This document shows positions 19,668-50,297 of a DNA stretch of 64,000 nucleotides, piece by piece; the stretch's first letter is position 1; each line of letters begins with the position of its first letter. A program made the translations under genes and the position numbers. A model generated the notes under the pieces. It was not told the origin of the DNA. It did no database searches and was given only the letters and a program-made list of their open reading frames with translations. The stretch is from a virus (taxonomy: Duplodnaviria > Caudoviricetes): the IMG/VR virus record IMGVR_UViG_3300027566_000003. One strand, 5' to 3'.

Positions 19668-20209
19668 AATCTTACACCTCCTTGTTATTTTGATACCACC
19701 TAGCAGGATTGTTATAAACCCTGCTAACGCTCTGAGCTTAAGGCGTATTATACCGACTCAGACCAGTGTTAATGTTTTACATCAAATATTTCTTTCCATT
19801 CTTCATTTTCACAAACATATTCTTCGCTTTTAAGATTAACAGAGTGAAAATTATAATCTTTATCAAAATGTCCATAATACATTTCACCCTCGATAAAACC
19901 ATGAACTGACTTTTTACATATTAACTTAATCATTTTTTAAAACTCCTTTCTATTCCTAGCAAACTTGCTATTGATTGGGTTAAAATTATCTAAACATTCT
20001 TTTTTCTAATAAAATATTATGCTCATCATTAAAAGCATCTGATATTGCTTTTCTTACATATTCGCTATCCATTGCTTTCTTAAATACCTTATCAAAGTCT
20101 TTTTCTGACATTCCCCTGTCAATATATTCATCGAATAATCCCTGTTTAACATCCTTTAAACTCATTTTTAATCATCCTTTCACCCAATGAATTAATAGAT
20201 TTATTGGTA

Positions 20210-40825: not shown

Positions 40826-43624
40826 TTGATTAAGCAACAACAATTCTATGTTTTTCGTATTAAATCTTCTAGATTAAAAGAGTATAAGTATAATATAACA
40901 CTAACTCCAGATCAAGCAAGGAAAAACAAAGAACTAATATCTATTGGAGATAGTGAATTAATTAGACAAATCAGGAATCACATAGGGGTTGATACTGAAA
41001 AACTTCAAGAGTTAAATAAAATTAAGAAAATAATTAAATTTCAAAAATCATCAGACGCAAACATCAAAGCATTGGAAAATATTCAAAAACAAATTGATGA
41101 TATATTATTTGTTCCAGAAGTAATTGTAACAAATATAAATTCAAATAGTCAATATAAGAACATGTTTGCTGATAGTATAACTGTAAATAATAAGACTTTT
41201 AGACGTTTCATGTGTGGTAGTGGACATTCTCGTAACAGTAAAGTTATTTTTGTAGAAGAAGAAACTATTAATAGAATTAAATCAAAATTGGAAAATGGAT
41301 ATGATAATGAAAAAAACTTCAGTGCGAATAAGTTTAATGCTTATTTCGCACTCTACAGTAGTAGTACATATAAAGTAAGAAATTTAAAGTTCTGTGTTGT
41401 AAAAGACTTAGAGGTAAATATTAAAAGAAAAGTAGATTTTGTATTTCAGGATGAAGAAAAAACTTGGGTGGAAGAATTAGATAATCATTCAATAGACTTA
41501 AAACCTCATGATGGCGAAGGTATTTTAACAATACGTGGTGCAAAACTTTGGGCAGAGGATTTAGAAATTAATGATTATATTCCAGGATTTTTCGGAATCA
41601 GAAATTCGTTTATTAAAGGGATGCTAATTTCCTACCCAGTGGATGAGTACACTAATGAAATTTCTGGAACATGCAAATTTATTGATGCATGGGGTGCTGA
41701 AAGAGATTCTAGGGAATACGATATATTCCTGACCACTAGCCAACTAAAACTATGGAAGAATTATAAGTCACTTGAGGAATTTACTAAAAATTGCGAGGAT
41801 AATAATTTGTCTTGGGGAGTATGTCATGTAGCTCCCCAACGCAACAATAATTATTGCTTGACAAATTATCAGTATTTACAGACCTTAGATATGGAAGATA
41901 ATGATATTGAAGAACTTTGCAAATTTAATGTAGATTGGTTTAAAGATATTTTAGGTGCAGATGCTATTAAAACTTCTTTATATTTATTAGGCAAAGGTGT
42001 AGAAAAAATAGAAAACATAAATGACATTCATAATCCTATTGTAAAAGCAATCTTACTAAATAATACTCTAGCAAAAGACACATATATACAAACTAAAATA
42101 ATGAATAGTATAAGAAAAAAGATTCAACACTCTTATGCAGGAAAAGTTCTTATTCAAGGAAATTACCAAACTATGTTAGCAGACCCGTTTAGTTTATGCC
42201 AAAATATATTTGGTGAAAAACCGGAAGATTGTACAGGATTGCTTAATGAAGGAGAACATTATTCAGCATATTGGAATAATAAGAATGTTACAAGTGTTGA
42301 TGCGTGTAGAAGCCCTCTTACTCATTACTCAGAGCATAATATACTAAAACTTCAAAATCATAATGTGGTTAATCATTGGTATAGATATCAAACAACTGGT
42401 ATAATCTATCCAACACTAGGATTAGACACAATTCGTCATGCAGATTCAGATTTCGACCTAGATTTGGTATTTACTTCCAGTAATCCAGTATTCTTAAGAT
42501 GTTCTCACAAAGATACATTACCTATTACATACGAAAAGAAAACTGCTCCCATAGATAAACTTACAGAAGAAGCAATGTTTCAAGCCGATTTATTAAGTTT
42601 TAGTAATGATATAGGAACTATTACTAATTATTCTACAGATATGTATACTATGTTGGAACAATTTCATAAAGGAGGTAAATCACATAATACCATATTAGAG
42701 AGATTGAAAATAACTCGTATGCTCCAAGGGAATGCAATAGATAAATCAAAAGGTGTTCAGGTACAAGATTTCCCTAAAGATTGGATTACTTATCAAACAA
42801 TTAGATACAAGGATGAATGTGATGAAGATGGGAAAGTAATTAAAGGTAAAGAAAAGGATACACCAGAATCAATTAAAGAGAAAAAATTTCTAAATAAATT
42901 AGTTATTCATAGAAAACCATATTTTCAGGGATGGATATACCCTAAATATAGAAAGAAGTATTTAGAATATATAGAAAAAGCTAATTTATATTGTAAAGTA
43001 ATTTTTAAAATGTCTTTAGAACAACTTAAAGAAAAAAGAAGAAAAACACCAGAAGAAAATGATTATATGAGATTTCATTATCACAACCTACCACTTAGTA
43101 TATCTCCAAGTGTAATGAACAAATTGTGTTGGCATATGGAATATGCTTGTAAGGATATAAAAACAGAAGTAAGTATAGATAATAATGCTGATATTGTTGA
43201 AATATTAAAAGATAAAGATATAGAAAAAAATGATGTTACATTTTCAAAAGTTCTGAAGTTGTATAAAGATTTTTGTGGAAAGAAAAGAATTCATGAGAAA
43301 ACAAAGCAAAGATCATATACGAAAGATAAATATGATGAAGAATCATATGATGATTTACAATTATTTTATAAGCAAATACGCATTGAGGCATATAAAATAT
43401 GTTCAAACACCTCAGAATTAATAAATTATGCTACAGAAATAACTTATGAATTGCATCCAAAAGATAAGAAAGATTTCTTATGGGATGTATTTGGAAAAGA
43501 TGTTTTAGTAAATATAGAAAAAAATAAACAAGATAAAGTTTTTATTCCTATTTTAGATAACAATGGTACAATCGAATATTTAGGAGATAAATTCAAATTA
43601 CAGGAGGTTATATATGATATTTAA
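40826..43624 (+). CDS. YonO-like single-subunit DNA-dependent RNA polymerase
   Basis: 932 aa; KGML, CRSPLTH and DFDLD metal-binding motif; SPbeta-like synteny ahead of HU, YonK-like and terminase genes. Confidence 0.85.
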   Translation: MIKQQQFYVFRIKSSRLKEYKYNITLTPDQARKNKELISIGDSELIRQIRNHIGVDTEKLQELNKIKKIIKFQKSSDANIKALENIQKQIDDILFVPEVIVTNINSNSQYKNMFADSITVNNKTFRRFMCGSGHSRNSKVIFVEEETINRIKSKLENGYDNEKNFSANKFNAYFALYSSSTYKVRNLKFCVVKDLEVNIKRKVDFVFQDEEKTWVEELDNHSIDLKPHDGEGILTIRGAKLWAEDLEINDYIPGFFGIRNSFIKGMLISYPVDEYTNEISGTCKFIDAWGAERDSREYDIFLTTSQLKLWKNYKSLEEFTKNCEDNNLSWGVCHVAPQRNNNYCLTNYQYLQTLDMEDNDIEELCKFNVDWFKDILGADAIKTSLYLLGKGVEKIENINDIHNPIVKAILLNNTLAKDTYIQTKIMNSIRKKIQHSYAGKVLIQGNYQTMLADPFSLCQNIFGEKPEDCTGLLNEGEHYSAYWNNKNVTSVDACRSPLTHYSEHNILKLQNHNVVNHWYRYQTTGIIYPTLGLDTIRHADSDFDLDLVFTSSNPVFLRCSHKDTLPITYEKKTAPIDKLTEEAMFQADLLSFSNDIGTITNYSTDMYTMLEQFHKGGKSHNTILERLKITRMLQGNAIDKSKGVQVQDFPKDWITYQTIRYKDECDEDGKVIKGKEKDTPESIKEKKFLNKLVIHRKPYFQGWIYPKYRKKYLEYIEKANLYCKVIFKMSLEQLKEKRRKTPEENDYMRFHYHNLPLSISPSVMNKLCWHMEYACKDIKTEVSIDNNADIVEILKDKDIEKNDVTFSKVLKLYKDFCGKKRIHEKTKQRSYTKDKYDEESYDDLQLFYKQIRIEAYKICSNTSELINYATEITYELHPKDKKDFLWDVFGKDVLVNIEKNKQDKVFIPILDNNGTIEYLGDKFKLQEVIYDI

Positions 43625-44881: not shown

Positions 44882-46132
44882 TTGCCCGATGAACCATACA
44901 CAATCAATCAACAATATATAGATTCGTGTGTATTAATGGATCACCCAAAAGAAGTTTTTGAAGAGTTTGATCATATCTTCCTTAGTGGTTATGTTGCAGG
45001 AGAGATGGACAATTTAAGGAAGAATGGAAAAACAGAAGAAACAAAATTTCAGGCCAGAAGAGCGTGTAGATATATAGATGCTAATGAGGACAAGATTACA
45101 TATCTTATTAGTGAGACTGATTACGATCTTCCAGAAAACTTTGATAAAGATAATATGGATAATAAAATAATCTCTATTTTATATAAAATGTGGAAAAATG
45201 ATAATAAATTTATTGCTTATAGTAATGACATATTGTTTAGGCAAAAATGTAAGGATTTAGGTATTCCTTATAGTAAATTTGAACCTACGGAATCTAATGG
45301 TGAAAAATACACAGGATATAAGACCATCCAAATGACAGAAAATGAACTTGCTAATTGGTATCAATCAGAAGCAAAATCAAATCTTTGGAATATGAATATC
45401 AATGAGTATTTATTAGTTCAGGTTAATAATGAAATAGTTGATAAATATCGTTGGACATCAAATGGGTTTAAAAGTATTGTAAAAAAAGATTTTAAAAGTA
45501 TGATGTTTGGAAATTTAAAACCAAAAGATATATACCAAGAGTTATGTATTGATAGTTTACATAATAATCAATTTACTGCTATTACAGGTAAACCAGGAAG
45601 TGGTAAATCACTTAGTAGTCTTATGTATATTATGTGGGCATTACAAAACCAAAAATATGATTCCTGCGTAATAATGTATAATCCCACAAAAGTTCGTGGT
45701 GCAGTTGATATGGGTTATTACAGTGGCAACTCCATAGAAAAGGGAATGCAACAGTTTATCGGCAATATGCTTATTACTAAATTTGGTGATAAAAGTATTG
45801 TGAATAATTTAATTACACAAGACAAGATTAGGTTGATTCCTATGGCAGATAGTAGAGGTATGGAGATAACTGATAATCAAATTCTTTATATAACTGAAGC
45901 TCAAAATACTACGCCTGATTTAATGAAACTTGCATTATCAAGATGTAGTAAAGATGCGAAAATCATTATAGAAGGTGATCCATATCAACAGGTAGATAAA
46001 ATAGATTATGTTGGAAGGAATAATGGTCTTCTACGAGCTATTGAAGTTTTCAAAAATGAAGATATGTTCGGATGTGTACATTTACCTAATATTTGGAGAA
46101 GTAGAATGGCAGATATATCTGATAAGATGTAA
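44882..46132 (+). CDS. phoH: PIN-PhoH fusion ATPase
   Basis: PIN IDSCVLM...DNKII...NDILFR; Walker A GKPGSGKS; EAQN, LSRC, GDPYQQVD. Confidence 0.88.
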   Translation: MPDEPYTINQQYIDSCVLMDHPKEVFEEFDHIFLSGYVAGEMDNLRKNGKTEETKFQARRACRYIDANEDKITYLISETDYDLPENFDKDNMDNKIISILYKMWKNDNKFIAYSNDILFRQKCKDLGIPYSKFEPTESNGEKYTGYKTIQMTENELANWYQSEAKSNLWNMNINEYLLVQVNNEIVDKYRWTSNGFKSIVKKDFKSMMFGNLKPKDIYQELCIDSLHNNQFTAITGKPGSGKSLSSLMYIMWALQNQKYDSCVIMYNPTKVRGAVDMGYYSGNSIEKGMQQFIGNMLITKFGDKSIVNNLITQDKIRLIPMADSRGMEITDNQILYITEAQNTTPDLMKLALSRCSKDAKIIIEGDPYQQVDKIDYVGRNNGLLRAIEVFKNEDMFGCVHLPNIWRSRMADISDKM

Positions 46133-46676: not shown

Positions 46677-46751
46677 GCTGGATTAGCTCAGTGGTAGAGC
46701 AGTTGCCTTGTAAGCATCATGTCATCCGTTCAAATAGGATATCCAGCTCCA
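46677..46751 (+). tRNA. tRNA-Thr(UGU) with encoded CCA
   Basis: GCTGGAT/ATCCAGC acceptor stem, GCTC/GAGC D stem, CTTGTAA anticodon loop, TTCAAAT T loop. Confidence 0.85.
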
Positions 46752-47058: not shown

Positions 47059-47257
47059 AACCACAATAAGGTTTGGAACAGGCATCCAACGCTCCAACAT
47101 ATGTTTTATATGAAGGATTAGAGATGTAGGAACTATATCAATAAGGATATAGAGTTTATAAAATAAACTGAGCGTCGCCCTACTATTGTGGTTTGATTCG
47201 TTTTTAGAGAGTTAGGATAAAGTTATCATAGTTAGTAATTATTCTCCTAACTCTCTA
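47059..47257 (+). ncRNA. candidate structured RNA upstream of the coiled-coil gene
   Basis: 10-bp closing helix 47059-68/47184-93, nested ACGCTC/GAGCGT, three hairpins, then a 13-bp hairpin at 47205-57. Confidence 0.45.
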
Positions 47258-47306: not shown

Positions 47307-47948
47307 ATGACAACTGAAACAATGACAATCCATAAAGCATTATCTGAACTCAAAGTAATTGGTGCTAAAATTGATAAAACTATTTCCCAAGGAGTATATT
47401 GTAAAGCAAATAAACATTCCAACGACAAAATCAATGGTGTATCAGTAGAAGAATTCAAGACGCAAATTCAAGCTAGTTGGAACAAAGCCAATGACTTAAT
47501 CAGTCGCAGGAATGCCATTAAAAGAGCAACTGTTTTATCTAATGCTACTACAAAAGTAAAAATTGGCGATAATGAAATGACGGTAGCAGAAGCAATTGAG
47601 ATGAAAAATAGTGGAATGGCATATAAGAAAACTTTAATGAACACAATGAACCAACATTATGTACATTCTATTCAAATTATAGATAAAGAAAATGGAGAAA
47701 CATTAAATCAAAAAGCTGAAAATTATGTAATTGGATTATTTGGTTCAAAAGAAGGTAAGACAAATACTGATGAACTTGAAAAAGTTAGGAAAGAATTTAT
47801 TCTTAATAATTCATTTGAATTTGTAGATCCAATTAAAGTTAAGGAAAAAATTGATGAATTAGAGAAAGAAATTTCTGATTTTGAATCTGAGATCGATTCC
47901 ACGCTGAGCACATCAAATGCTCTGACTGTAATAGAAATTGAATATTAA
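47307..47948 (+). CDS. coiled-coil protein, DIP1984-like from recall
   Basis: MTIHKALSELK...SNATTKVKIG..EMTVAEAIE...IDSTLSTSNA. Confidence 0.7.
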   Translation: MTTETMTIHKALSELKVIGAKIDKTISQGVYCKANKHSNDKINGVSVEEFKTQIQASWNKANDLISRRNAIKRATVLSNATTKVKIGDNEMTVAEAIEMKNSGMAYKKTLMNTMNQHYVHSIQIIDKENGETLNQKAENYVIGLFGSKEGKTNTDELEKVRKEFILNNSFEFVDPIKVKEKIDELEKEISDFESEIDSTLSTSNALTVIEIEY

Positions 47949-47971
47949 TCCATAATCCTTAAGAAATAACT

Positions 47972-48320
47972 ACTTACTGTTTTCCGAAAACTTTAAACCA
48001 TAATTGACAAGTCTTTTATGTACTTAGACTGGTTTAATAAATATAAAGAAAGTACATATTATTTACATCTTTAACAGGATGTTTACTTTGAAAATTATAT
48101 GATTTAATTAAAATCAAATGATACAAAAGCAAAACAACAAAAATTCTGTAAAGATTAAAGTTTAAATCTAAACGCTTAAAGTTAAAAATTCAAAGTTTAT
48201 TATAAGTGTAAAGTTTAAGGTTTAAATAGTAAATAATAAAGATTGATTAAATCCCTGATAAAACGGTTTGGGATGATTATGCTTGCCCAAAAGTATCCGC
48301 AGGGCTGGAAAGCAGTAAGT
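47972..48320 (+). ncRNA. candidate ~350-nt structured RNA with heptamer-repeat segment
   Basis: 14-bp terminal helix, 8-bp stem plus 9-bp pseudoknot, 12 heptads, nested 14-bp GC-rich 3' hairpin. Confidence 0.75.
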
Positions 48321-48724
48321 TATTATATAAATTTTGATTTATTAAAAGGAATTACGCCGACTGAATTAATTAAGACTTAATAAGATGTTTGTGAATACAC
48401 ATCTTACACATGAGAATAAAAGTTGTGTTTGACTACGGTTAAAAATACAATCTCTCATGGATACATACTTGGGGTTTAATCAAGAGACTCTATCTCATAT
48501 TTCGCCTTTATGGTGGTTATAAAAGTCGTTTGTGCTTTAGGCACGTTATATGGAGGCGTATGTCTCCCATCTAATATGGAAGGAGTTTCATAAACTGCCT
48601 TCAATAACAGAGTATGGAGTGTAAAGAAATTGTGTGACACAGTTAACTTTTCATTCTGTACTCTTATTTAATTTATTATACCCTCTCCCCTATTCTCTTA
48701 TAAGGAGATGAAATATAATAAAAG

Positions 48725-48907
48725 ATGAAGACAAATAAAATAGTAGAACAGCCTATTGAAAATAAATTAAACAAATACAATAATTATGATATTGAAAATG
48801 CTGATACTAAATGTCCGGTGTGTGGTAAATTACGTTTCTGGCTTAAATTTTATTGTAACGAAACAATTCTAAGATGTGAAGATTGTGGACATTTTGAGAA
48901 AATTTAA
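48725..48907 (+). CDS. small Zn-ribbon protein
   Basis: CPVCG...CEDCG. Confidence 0.6.
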   Translation: MKTNKIVEQPIENKLNKYNNYDIENADTKCPVCGKLRFWLKFYCNETILRCEDCGHFEKI

Positions 48908-48974
48908 TCCCCTATTGGTCGATTAGGGGATATTTTAATTTTGAAAATAAAATAACTTCTTTAGGAGAATTTAT

Positions 48975-50297
48975 TTGGAATATATACGAAAAGAAAATGA
49001 GTCATTTTTACAATTTGCTGATAGACTATTATCCAATAGAAAAGAATATGATTTAGACAAAGTTGAAGTTTATGAAATATTATACGGAGAACAAGTATCA
49101 GCAGATCATGCAAGAAAATGTCTAACTAGTTTAGAAAAAACAATTGAACAAGATAAAGTATGCAAAGTTGATATGCAATCTGATGAAAAATGTCTAGAAG
49201 ATAATTTGACTAAAAAATATAAATCAACCACAGAAATTAATAAAGATGGAACATATTCTAGTGATAAATTATTAGTTATGTCTGAAGAAGAATCTAAAAA
49301 TGTTAATTATCTTTTAAAATCTCATGGTTTTGACAACTTATCATGGGAATTAGTATCAGCAAGAAACAATATTTGGAATGTTTATAGTAAACAAGATGGT
49401 GTTAAAACACTTTATTCAAGCAAAATAGTAACTAAACCTAAAGTAAATCAATTTAATATTAATTGGATTAAACAGGCATTAGAAGATTTAGACCTAGAAA
49501 GTCCAGTAGTAGATCAAAAGCCTTATCATGTTAAAGGAAAAACTTTAGAAATTAATTTGGCAGATGTTCATATTGATAAACTTTGCTGTATTGATGAAAC
49601 AAGAAATAGTTATTCTACAGAAATTGGTATACAAAGATTATGGAATGTAATTAATGATATTATTGAAAAAGTAAATTTTTATAATATCAAGAAAATAATA
49701 TTTCCATTTGGTCAAGATGTGGCGAATATTGATAATATTTTCAATTCCACAACAAAAAATACGCCACAAGACACAGACGTAAAATATGATGTAATGTATA
49801 AATTGTTACTCAAAAATATAATTCAAATTATACATAAGCTTACTGATATTGCTCCAGTTCATGTAATATATGTCGGAGGAAATCATGATAAAGTAACATC
49901 GTTTACAATGACTGAAGCAATGTATTGGCATTTTTTGAATAATGATAATGTAGAAGTTGATTCTGTATTTAATAATCGCAAATACATAATGATTGGGAAA
50001 AACCTTCTGGGATTAGCACACGGGGCAGATGAACGCAAAAACATAGTTTATTGTATGCAAAATGATGTTCCTGAATTATGGGGGAAAGCGAAATATAGAG
50101 AATTTCATTTATCTCATTTCCATAAAGAAAAAATGACAGATGAACAAAATGGCATTGTTTTTAGATGGATAAGTGCAATTTGTGGCAATGACGCTTGGAC
50201 TTATAATAGTGGATATGTTGGTGCTCAAAAGAAAGCTCAATCTTTTATTTGGGATGACGATAAGGGTTTAGAAATGATTATTAATAGTTATGTTTAA
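48975..50297 (+). CDS. calcineurin-like metallophosphoesterase (YonJ-like)
   Basis: LADVH, GQD, GNHD, AHG, HFH motifs. Confidence 0.85.
   Translation: MEYIRKENESFLQFADRLLSNRKEYDLDKVEVYEILYGEQVSADHARKCLTSLEKTIEQDKVCKVDMQSDEKCLEDNLTKKYKSTTEINKDGTYSSDKLLVMSEEESKNVNYLLKSHGFDNLSWELVSARNNIWNVYSKQDGVKTLYSSKIVTKPKVNQFNINWIKQALEDLDLESPVVDQKPYHVKGKTLEINLADVHIDKLCCIDETRNSYSTEIGIQRLWNVINDIIEKVNFYNIKKIIFPFGQDVANIDNIFNSTTKNTPQDTDVKYDVMYKLLLKNIIQIIHKLTDIAPVHVIYVGGNHDKVTSFTMTEAMYWHFLNNDNVEVDSVFNNRKYIMIGKNLLGLAHGADERKNIVYCMQNDVPELWGKAKYREFHLSHFHKEKMTDEQNGIVFRWISAICGNDAWTYNSGYVGAQKKAQSFIWDDDKGLEMIINSYV

What the first reader, a model, noticed from the sequence alone, without database searches (positions are those of the whole stretch)
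47307..48324. Coiled-coil protein followed by a ~350-nt pseudoknotted RNA carrying 12 in-phase heptamer repeats
Seen in the sequence: 24 nt after the stop codon, ACTTACTGTTTTCC (47972-85) pairs with GGAAAGCAGTAAGT (48307-20), 14 bp with one G-U. Inside are TTAAACCA/TGGTTTAA (47993-48000/48030-37), whose loop TATGTACTT (48017-25) pairs with AAGTACATA (48050-58) as an H-type pseudoknot; an ACATC/GATGT hairpin; and a nested 3' hairpin CCCTG-CGG-TTTGGG/CCCAAA-CCG-CAGGG (48253-48304). The A-rich middle has a strict 7-nt period: TGTAAAG ATTAAAG TTTAAAT CTAAACG CTTAAAG TTAAAAA TTCAAAG (48147-95), an 11-nt break, then TGTAAAG TTTAAGG TTTAAAT AGTAAAT AATAAAG (48207-41). Inference: a ribonucleoprotein in which an oligomer or filament of the 213-aa protein binds one heptad per subunit, or in which the repeats act as a template or ruler. 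The protein resembles DIP1984-like coiled-coil proteins from recall (unverified). I cannot assign the RNA to a known family.
Basis: partly seen in the sequence, partly recalled or inferred. Interest (0 to 1): 0.9.

Follow-up and report, generated by a model that had tools for sequence, protein, structure and literature searches.

The report
Phage heptad-repeat RNA with partner protein
Directly after a small helical protein gene this phage encodes a 349-base, doubly knotted RNA carrying about a dozen 7-base repeats; the gene-plus-RNA pair is conserved from gut phages to phage T5, its first 86 bases are already catalogued as the function-unknown RAGATH-27 motif, and what it does is untested.

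Summary
At 47972-48320 (+) there is a closed 349-nt RNA: a 15-bp closing stem, an H-type pseudoknot, a nested 3' hairpin and 12 in-phase heptads (consensus NUUAAAG). Three corrections apply. The TTAAACCA/TGGTTTAA helix is lineage-specific and is replaced in the consensus by an extension of the hairpin. The ACATC/GATGT hairpin lies in a hypervariable insert. A second, strongly covarying pseudoknot joins 47999-48005 to the 3' hairpin loop at 48275-48281.

The RNA is not uncatalogued. Positions 47973-48058 match Rfam RAGATH-27 (59 bits, below the gathering score of 76.1, E 1e-7). Above-threshold RAGATH-27 copies follow a 56%-identical homolog of the same gene and carry the same array, 3' hairpin and closing strand. 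The Rfam model therefore covers only the 5' domain.

The gene-RNA pair recurs in all 74 IMG/VR loci, phage T5 (T5.085), six other reference phages, Dulem virus 39 and most bacterial MAG loci, usually inside tRNA clusters. In some relatives a tRNA gene sits inside the variable loop.

The protein is a helical bundle with no sequence family. Its best structural match is PDB 3KDQ, and a symmetric homo-oligomer is predicted. The function is unknown. I favour a dedicated ribonucleoprotein, with the T4 gene 32 operator as the closest analogue.

This scan has met the same family before, in T5-like phages.

The parts
47307..47948 (+). 213-aa partner gene (phrog_1491, homolog of T5.085)
   Evidence: ORF. 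PHROG hit E 1.5e-54; its 'tail fiber' label is untested. 738 phage records hold homologs. AF2 model pLDDT 86, helical bundle plus a small sheet.
47972..47986 (+). P1 closing stem, 5' strand
   Evidence: Pairs with 48306-48320. Cognate versus non-cognate helix score across 18 lineages is 13.1 versus 5.1.
47973..48058 (+). 5' domain, matching Rfam RAGATH-27 (RF03100)
   Evidence: 59 bits, E 1.3e-7, model positions 1-86 of 86, below the gathering score of 76.1.
47999..48005 (+). PK2, 5' strand (CATAATT)
   Evidence: Pairs with 48275-48281. The pairing covaries in every lineage inspected. Cognate 6.9 versus non-cognate 4.5.
48006..48034 (+). P2 hairpin (48006-48014 with 48026-48034)
   Evidence: RNAalifold consensus of 9 relatives; 3 pairs show compensatory changes.
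48017..48025 (+). PK1, 5' strand (in the P2 loop)
   Evidence: Pairs with 48050-48058. This is the Rfam SS_cons helix. It covaries with Dulem virus 39, T5 and L079.
48050..48058 (+). PK1, 3' strand
48059..48146 (+). Variable insert, including the ACATC/GATGT hairpin (48065-48082)
   Evidence: Most of it (roughly 48083-48140) is replaced in relatives whose protein is 96% identical; the hairpin at its 5' edge persists in those close relatives and is lost in L034. The same loop holds a tRNA gene in L039, L040, L045, L070 and L085.
48147..48195 (+). Heptads 1-7
48196..48206 (+). 11-nt break (starts with the conserved AAAG-UUUAU landmark)
48207..48241 (+). Heptads 8-12
48253..48304 (+). P3 nested 3' hairpin (48253-57/48300-04, 48264-66/48297-99, 48267-72/48286-91)
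48275..48281 (+). PK2, 3' strand (GATTATG, in the P3 loop)
48306..48320 (+). P1 closing stem, 3' strand
46677..46751 (+). tRNA-Thr(UGU), the conserved upstream neighbour (context)

Best explanation
Shown: 47972-48320 is the window's copy of a widespread phage RNA family. Its 5' domain is catalogued as RAGATH-27. The RNA folds into a compact core of five helices: P1 (closing stem), P2 with PK1, and P3 with PK2. P1 and PK2 both tie the 5' domain to the 3' domain. A hypervariable insert and an array of roughly 100 nt, made of 12-13 heptads, loop out of this core.

Inferred: the RNA is co-transcribed with the 213-aa gene and, as in tRNA operons, trimmed by host tRNA-processing enzymes. It then serves as the dedicated partner of that protein. 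The structured core would act as a specific nucleation site. Copies of the self-associating helical protein would then load cooperatively along the UAAAG lattice, giving a ribonucleoprotein of defined size that acts early in infection.

The cellular target of that particle is unknown.
For: Linkage:
- The gene and RNA are adjacent, on the same strand and in the same order in all 74 IMG/VR loci. In L037 two small ORFs lie between them.
- The same holds in Dulem virus 39, T5, phiCD211, Jenst, PVP-SE1, Achelous, phiPsa381 and D-1873.
- It also holds in at least 8 of 11 bacterial MAG loci.
- Protein identity across these loci falls to about 30%.

RNA level and strand:
- P1 contains 2-6 G-U pairs per lineage. 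These would be A-C mismatches on the other strand.
- Covariation supports P1 and PK2, P3 and P2.
- No terminator lies between the gene and the RNA.

Array:
- Period 7 is the best or second-best lag in 17 of 20 lineages, z up to 6.
- The array changes little between close relatives, whereas the neighbouring insert is replaced.

Processing:
- tRNA genes lie inside the variable loop in several relatives.
- A tRNA starts 3-9 nt after P1 in L039, PVP-SE1 and Dulem virus 39.

Protein:
- It has invariant paired SNAxT motifs next to its small sheet.
- Self-association prediction: score 0.55, best of 3 controls 0.11. That mark was reached by 20 of 30 proteins solved as pairs of one chain and by 1 of 23 solved as single chains. 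The runs agree in at least 86% of contacts and the partner's pLDDT is at least 82. My own alignment and four copies were used, unlike the calibration.

Precedent: T4 gp32 nucleates on a pseudoknot and spreads cooperatively over UUAAA/UAAA repeats (PMC535899).
Against: - No experiment or computation here shows protein-RNA contact.
- The predicted protein interface is symmetric, so it suggests a dimer rather than a filament.
- The invariant protein motifs do not change in Achelous, whose heptads read UUUAAGU. They may therefore contact the invariant core junctions (CGAAA, AAAUCC, GGCUG) rather than the heptads.
- Thermodynamic folding does not predict the array to be clearly unpaired: mean pairing probability 0.56 against 0.62 for the rest. 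UUUAAA is self-complementary.
- Adjacency alone could equally reflect cis regulation.
Confidence: 0.45

Rival explanations
1. Decoy or sponge. The RNA acts mainly on a host or phage factor other than the neighbouring protein. Its A-rich repeat lattice would titrate a single-strand-binding protein, Hfq or S1, or an endoribonuclease or toxin that cuts A-rich sites. The neighbouring protein would be a helper, or unrelated in function.
For: - 12-13 near-identical A-rich units are displayed from a stable core. 10 of the 12 window units contain UAAA, the element that gp32 recognises (PMC535899).
- The location in early and tRNA regions of lytic phages fits host take-over or counter-defence.
- From general knowledge, repeat-RNA sponges and RNA antitoxins exist (CsrB for CsrA, ToxI for ToxN).
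Against: It does not explain why one particular protein gene is kept immediately upstream down to about 30% protein identity. No candidate target was identified here.
Confidence: 0.2
2. Cis element. The structure is a 3' UTR or operon element that stabilises, processes or autoregulates the upstream mRNA and the surrounding tRNA transcript, rather than a free-standing RNA.
For: - It starts 23 nt after the stop codon, with no terminator or enriched promoter in between.
- tRNAs are embedded in it or abut it.
- Autoregulation through a pseudoknot plus UUAAA repeats is known for T4 gene 32.
Against: - A double-pseudoknot core of more than 290 nt with a fixed architecture is far more elaborate than known stabilisers.
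- In L037 about 0.9 kb and two ORFs separate the gene and the RNA, yet the RNA is intact.
- The gp32 operator overlaps the ribosome-binding site, whereas this RNA lies behind the gene.
Confidence: 0.15
3. Catalytic or ligand-binding RNA. The compact core is a ribozyme or a sensor, for example one that processes itself. The protein would be a cofactor.
For: - The core has two pseudoknots and invariant unpaired nucleotides at its junctions.
- From memory, the RAGATH series was collected near ribozyme-associated genes.
- The same window carries a pistol ribozyme.
Against: No similarity to any ribozyme or riboswitch model in Rfam. This reading leaves the repeat array unexplained.
Confidence: 0.07
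4. DNA-level element. The heptads would be protein-binding iterons of an origin or a centromere. From memory, heptad arrays are bound by the omega protein of plasmid pSM19035.
For: Tandem heptads lie in an ORF-free stretch. Related Clostridium phages are plasmid-like prophages.
Against: - The flanking helices use many G-U pairs and covary as RNA on one strand.
- The purine bias of the array is strand-specific and is kept across hosts.
- The element sits in tRNA clusters of strictly lytic phages such as T5.
Confidence: 0.03
5. Programmable guide of the VIPR type. The two variable bases of each heptad would together spell a target.
For: VIPR shows that phage repeat RNAs with a fixed core plus NN, capped by a pseudoknotted tail, can guide a protein filament (bioRxiv 10.64898/2026.04.26.720920).
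Against: - The array changes only at scattered points among relatives with 93-96% protein identity, while the adjacent insert is swapped.
- Several units are conserved between distant phages.
- There is one RNA per genome.
- The protein model is helical, not an RRM/RAMP fold.
Confidence: 0.03

Closest known systems
RAGATH-27 RNA motif (Rfam RF03100). Origin from memory: the Breaker-lab comparative-genomics surveys. The NAR 2017 main text, PMC5737381, does not mention it, and its supplement was not readable here.
   Same: The first 86 nt align to the whole model, with its conserved CGAAAACUUUAAAC block and its single annotated helix. Above-threshold members have the same upstream gene and the same downstream array, hairpin and closing strand.
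   Different: The window copy scores 59 bits, below the gathering score of 76.1. The Rfam model covers about a quarter of the RNA. It annotates what is really the pseudoknot helix as a plain hairpin, and it misses divergent lineages: T5 gave no hit at the gathering threshold, and L040-type loci none at E 0.01. No function is known.
Translational operator of T4 gene 32 mRNA with gp32 (PMC535899)
   Same: An RNA pseudoknot lies next to a tract of repeated UUAAA/UAAA elements. The protein nucleates on the knot and spreads cooperatively. From memory, the gp32 site size is about 7 nt.
   Different: That operator is about 70 nt, lies in the 5' leader and overlaps the ribosome-binding site. Its protein is an OB-fold SSB. 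Here the RNA lies behind the gene, is closed by a long-range stem and a second pseudoknot, and the protein is a helical bundle.
VIPR systems (Vipr protein plus vrRNA; bioRxiv 10.64898/2026.04.26.720920 and 10.64898/2026.04.26.720927)
   Same: Phage-encoded. A tandem short-period repeat RNA is followed by a conserved pseudoknotted tail. Protomers oligomerise along the repeats.
   Different: VIPR has a period of 5 (YNNGG) rather than 7. Its protein is a RAMP/RRM. Its RNAs are about 100 nt and come several per locus. Its NN positions are hypervariable, which is not seen here.
TRAP with the trp leader, HutP with the hut leader, and CsrA with CsrB/RsmZ (from general knowledge)
   Same: A defined number of short repeats at regular spacing is bound by an oligomeric protein, or by many copies of one protein.
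   Different: The motifs, spacing and protein folds differ. Those RNAs are leaders or sponges without a closed double-pseudoknot core.
GOLLD and ROOL large RNAs, tmRNA-SmpB, and Ro60-Y RNA
   Same: These are large structured RNAs of phages or prophages that often lie next to tRNA genes (PMC5737381). In tmRNA and Y RNA the 5' and 3' ends are paired.
   Different: No Rfam or ARAGORN match. There is no tRNA-like end, no open reading frame (stops in all frames) and no Ro60 or SmpB gene.

Membership tests
RAGATH-27 (RF03100) | Covariance-model score at or above the curated gathering score (76.1 bits) | tested here: not met
   59.0 bits, E 1.3e-7, full model 1-86.
RAGATH-27 (RF03100) | Conserved 5' sequence block and the 7-bp helix of the model's consensus structure | tested here: met
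   The block aligns almost without change. The helix forms as UAUGUAC/GUACAUA, with all seven pairs kept through changed bases.
RAGATH-27 (RF03100) | Same genomic setting and flanks as members above threshold | tested here: met
   17 loci at 93-97 bits. The nine checked follow a 56%-identical homolog of the gene. In the three whose downstream sequence was displayed (L003, L008, L023), an insert, a heptad array, a 3' hairpin and a closing strand follow.
VIPR (Vipr plus vrRNA) | RAMP/RRM-fold protein with a G-loop and thumb | tested here: not met
   The AF2 model (pLDDT 86) has six helices and a small four-stranded sheet, with no beta-alpha-beta-beta-alpha-beta unit.
VIPR (Vipr plus vrRNA) | 9-16 YNNGG repeats (period 5) with hypervariable NN | tested here: not met
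   The period is 7 and the core is UAAAG. The array is nearly constant among close relatives.
tmRNA | tRNA-like end and a tag reading frame | tested here: not met
   ARAGORN and Rfam find none. UAA occurs in all three frames of the array.
DIP1984/septicolysin-like proteins | Sequence-profile match | tested here: inconclusive
   No Pfam, NCBIfam or PDB sequence hit.
DIP1984/septicolysin-like proteins | Shared fold | tested here: inconclusive
   PDB 3KDQ ranks first in both searches: Foldseek E 9.7e-3, TM 0.56 by target; VIA-align Z 10.9, rmsd 8.7, 151 of 152 residues aligned, next hit Z 7.1. An AFDB entry named 'Septicolysin' has E 9.1e-3. For helical bundles a Z below about 13 may reflect only a common arrangement. 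That 3KDQ is DIP1984 rests on my memory.
T4 gene 32-type operator (works-like comparison) | Pseudoknot followed by UUAAA/UAAA repeats | tested here: met
   PK1 and PK2 are present, and 10 of the 12 window heptads contain UAAA.
T4 gene 32-type operator (works-like comparison) | Lies in the 5' leader over the ribosome-binding site of the gene for the binding protein, an OB-fold SSB | tested here: not met
   The RNA lies 3' of the gene, and the protein model is helical.

The most novel reading that the evidence does not exclude
The module is an undescribed class of phage ribonucleoprotein. A double-pseudoknot core would nucleate cooperative loading of a helical dimeric protein onto a fixed-length lattice of 12-13 UAAAG heptads. 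The resulting particle would be matured by tRNA-processing enzymes and could even work as two RNA pieces held together by P1 and PK2 when a tRNA is cut out of its loop. It would be used in early infection for host take-over or counter-defence.
Probability: 0.25. Interest if true: 0.8.

Novelty: new member of a known kind. Interest (0 to 1): 0.58.

Why it matters
The RNA occurs in hundreds of sequenced phages, including the model phage T5 (NC_005859.1, complement 43140-43496, after T5.085). It is not annotated there and has no known function.

Linking it to RAGATH-27 joins two separate pieces of knowledge. One is an 86-nt catalogued motif of unknown role. The other is a 290-475-nt, two-pseudoknot RNA with a repeat lattice and a constant protein partner.

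This turns an orphan motif into an experiment that any T5 laboratory can run. If the particle exists, it would be a further example, beside the gp32 operator, TRAP and VIPR, of proteins reading short-period RNA repeats. It might also explain why large phages keep this cassette inside their tRNA clusters.

Tried and rejected
- RNA-seq evidence: no RNA holder was listed for the window stretch or for the above-threshold RAGATH-27 locus L003. I did not lay reads, because only contigs of uncertain type were offered.
- Literature searches for RAGATH-27, T5.085, DIP1984, and T5 with noncoding RNA, pseudoknot and ribonucleoprotein gave nothing on this RNA or protein. The supplement of PMC5737381 is not held.
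- Protein family searches were blank or sub-threshold: Pfam, NCBIfam, PADLOC, PDB by sequence, and the protein atlas.
- Reverse transcriptase as a user of a template: none in the 122 kb held. The record is only 66% complete.
- An automated search for P2/PK1 in every lineage gave mixed calls outside the AT-rich, T5 and L079 groups. I therefore claim PK1 only for those groups.
- A crude count of units per array was too noisy to support a fixed number across the family.
- Co-variation between the protein motifs and the heptad consensus: none seen.
- Thermodynamic folding did not show the array to be single-stranded.
- By eye, the heptads matched neither the complements of the tRNA anticodon loops I recalled nor the Shine-Dalgarno core. 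I dropped both ideas.
Full report
**Observation.**
- The 213-aa ORF ends at 47948.
- 47972-47985 pairs with 48307-48320: 14 bp with one G-U, or 15 bp with a further G-U at 47986/48306.
- The loop 48017-48025 pairs with 48050-48058.
- The nested hairpin 48253-48304 is present.
- The heptads run 48147-48195 and 48207-48241, with an 11-nt break between them.
- This is more than chance. Tandem Repeats Finder reports period 7 with 11.6 copies.
- Lag-7 autocorrelation is 0.57, z = 4.4 against dinucleotide shuffles, and lag 7 is the best lag.
- The + strand folds with z = -6.9, against -3.9 for the - strand.

**It belongs to a catalogued family.**
- A permissive Rfam scan matches 47973-48058 to RAGATH-27 (RF03100) over the whole 86-position model. 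The score is 59 bits, E about 1e-7, below the curated 76.1 bits.
- A pattern scan of IMG/VR with the conserved 5' block found 25 loci. Of the 17 scanned with Rfam, all score 93-97 bits, that is, they are members above threshold.
- The nine I checked lie directly behind a 56%-identical homolog of the 213-aa gene. In the three whose downstream sequence I displayed (L003, L008, L023), an insert, a heptad array, a 3' hairpin and a strand pairing back to the start of the motif follow.
- The Rfam model is therefore the 5' quarter of a much longer RNA. The one helix it annotates is the pseudoknot helix.

**Distribution.**
- tblastn finds the protein in 738 phage records. These include Salmonella, Escherichia, Pseudomonas, Vibrio, Klebsiella, Bacillus, Erwinia and Lactococcus phages.
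- In all 74 IMG/VR loci found with the protein, the RNA follows. In L037 it lies about 0.9 kb away behind two inserted ORFs. In L097 it follows a truncated gene.
- The same architecture follows the homolog in Dulem virus 39, T5 (T5.085), phiCD211, Jenst, PVP-SE1, Achelous, phiPsa381 and D-1873.
- It also follows the homolog in at least 8 of 11 loci from bacterial MAGs, including Blautia and Lachnoclostridium.
- An unbiased search for the best long-range helix in each flank returns, lineage after lineage, a 5' strand ending in CG before GAAA and a 3' strand starting after GGCUG.
- Element length ranges from 291 to 474 nt.

**Anatomy and covariation.**
- P1 (closing stem): the cognate 5' and 3' strands give a mean helix score of 13.1, against 5.1 for non-cognate combinations across 18 lineages. 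There are 2-6 G-U pairs per lineage, which fixes the RNA strand.
- P3 (3' hairpin): 11 pairs, 89.3% of cells paired against 70.1% in shuffles (0/500). The covariation score is 0.535 against 0.168 (0/500), and slid controls give 39-49%. All 23 sequences pair at every position of the outer 5-bp helix.
- P2: the consensus of nine relatives pairs 48006-48014 with 48026-48034, with compensatory changes.
- PK1: the pairing changes from UAUGUAC/GUACAUA here to GCAGAU/AUCUGC in Dulem virus 39 and CAGCGGU/ACCGCUG in T5.
- PK2 (new here): the linker 47999-48005 pairs with the P3 loop at 48275-48281. The partner sequences differ in almost every lineage yet stay complementary: CATAATT/GATTATG here, TGTAATC/GATTACA in L040, CATAGCC/GGCTATG in L074, ATCTTAC/GTAAGAT in T5, TATAAGTT/AACTTATA in phiCD211. 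Cognate score 6.9 against non-cognate 4.5.
- P1 and PK2 both clamp the 5' domain to the 3' domain. The insert and the array loop out.

**The insert and the array.**
- Among relatives with 93-96% protein identity, most of the insert (roughly 48083-48140) is replaced outright. The ACATC/GATGT hairpin at its 5' edge persists in those close relatives and is lost in L034. The array differs only by scattered point changes.
- In more distant relatives the insert holds a complete tRNA gene: Ile in L039, Gly in L040 and L045, Phe in L070, Leu in L085.
- Period 7 is the best or second-best lag in 17 of 20 lineages. This holds even where the unit reads UUUAAGU (Achelous) or is C-rich (L079).
- In the lineages where a first unit (CUGUAAAG or CGGAAAG) is recognisable, the distance to the AAAUCC junction is roughly 100-107 nt. 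My unit counter was too crude to claim a constant number.
- Folding energies do not show the array to be unpaired, so 'displayed single strand' remains an inference.

**Context.**
- The cassette sits in phage tRNA clusters. tRNA-Thr(UGU) lies upstream here and in six relatives.
- A tRNA begins 3-9 nt after P1 in L039, PVP-SE1 and Dulem virus 39.
- No terminator separates the gene and the RNA.
- The order PhoH, tRNA, gene, RNA, exonuclease is shared with Clostridium phages D-1873 and phiCD211.
- The genome holds one copy of the RNA. No reverse transcriptase was found in the 122 kb available.

**The protein.**
- It has no Pfam, NCBIfam or PADLOC family and no sequence match in the PDB. The PHROG label 'tail fiber' is an untested annotation.
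- The AF2 model (pLDDT 86) is a six-helix bundle. A small sheet is formed by the N-terminal strand, a hairpin and the C-terminal strand.
- Two invariant SNAxT motifs sit at the entrances to that sheet.
- Both structure aligners rank PDB 3KDQ, an uncharacterised C. diphtheriae protein, first. An AFDB 'Septicolysin' entry also appears.
- Four copies are predicted to associate through a symmetric interface: score 0.55, best of 3 controls 0.11. That mark was reached by 20 of 30 proteins solved as pairs of one chain and by 1 of 23 solved as single chains. The runs agree in at least 86% of contacts and the partner's pLDDT is at least 82. My own alignment and four copies were used, unlike the calibration.

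**Mechanism.**
- I favour a dedicated ribonucleoprotein (confidence 0.45). The evidence is the unbroken linkage, the self-associating protein, and the pseudoknot-plus-UAAA-repeat layout. That layout in T4 gene 32 mRNA nucleates and then spreads gp32 (PMC535899).
- Shown: the RNA, its fold, its conservation and its linkage.
- Inferred: binding, stoichiometry, processing and role.
- Rivals: a sponge for another factor (0.20), a cis element (0.15), a catalytic or sensing RNA (0.07), a DNA-level repeat (0.03) and a VIPR-like guide (0.03).
- VIPR is a good conceptual parallel. Membership fails on protein fold, period, copy number and NN variability.

**Earlier scan notes.** The same family was reported before from T5-like phages and one other phage, as 'matching no catalogued RNA family'. 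My result agrees on structure and linkage but corrects that point. T5 itself gives no Rfam hit at the gathering threshold, which explains the earlier blanks.

**Verdict.** This is a real, well-supported structured RNA with a constant partner gene. It is a sub-threshold member of a catalogued but only partly described family, and its function is unknown.

Noticed in passing
window 19694-19767 (-): Pistol self-cleaving ribozyme (RF02679), 47.1 bits, above the gathering score of 34.5.
   Followed up: no
window 46677-46751 (+): tRNA-Thr(UGU). The same tRNA lies upstream of the partner gene in L028, L040, L045, L070, L085 and L097.
   Followed up: partly
window 47205-47257 (+): A perfect 13-bp inverted repeat (47205-47217 with 47245-47257) with a 27-nt loop lies just upstream of the gene's ribosome-binding site. 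No T-run follows, so it is not a typical terminator.
   Followed up: no
window 48321-48974: About 650 nt more before the exonuclease gene, containing only a 60-aa ORF (48725-48907). No significant Rfam match.
   Followed up: no
window 44882-46132 and 48975-50297: A PIN-PhoH fusion lies upstream and an SbcD/Mre11-like exonuclease (phrog_704) downstream. The same order around the cassette is seen in Clostridium phages D-1873 and phiCD211.
   Followed up: partly
L039:3273-3346, L040:3320-3392, L045:3316-3390, L070:3326-3400, L085:3302-3374: Complete tRNA genes (Ile, Gly, Gly, Phe, Leu) lie inside the RNA's variable loop. After tRNA excision the RNA would be in two pieces held together by P1 and PK2.
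   Followed up: partly
L037:3140-4050: Two small ORFs are inserted between the partner gene and the RNA. This is the only locus where the two are not adjacent.
   Followed up: partly
L102:3654-4010 (NC_005859.1 complement 43140-43496): The T5 copy of the RNA (357 nt) lies in an unannotated gap between T5.085 and the promoter of T5.084. T5 has a separate annotated 'RNAX' stable RNA of unknown function at 40848-41566.
   Followed up: partly
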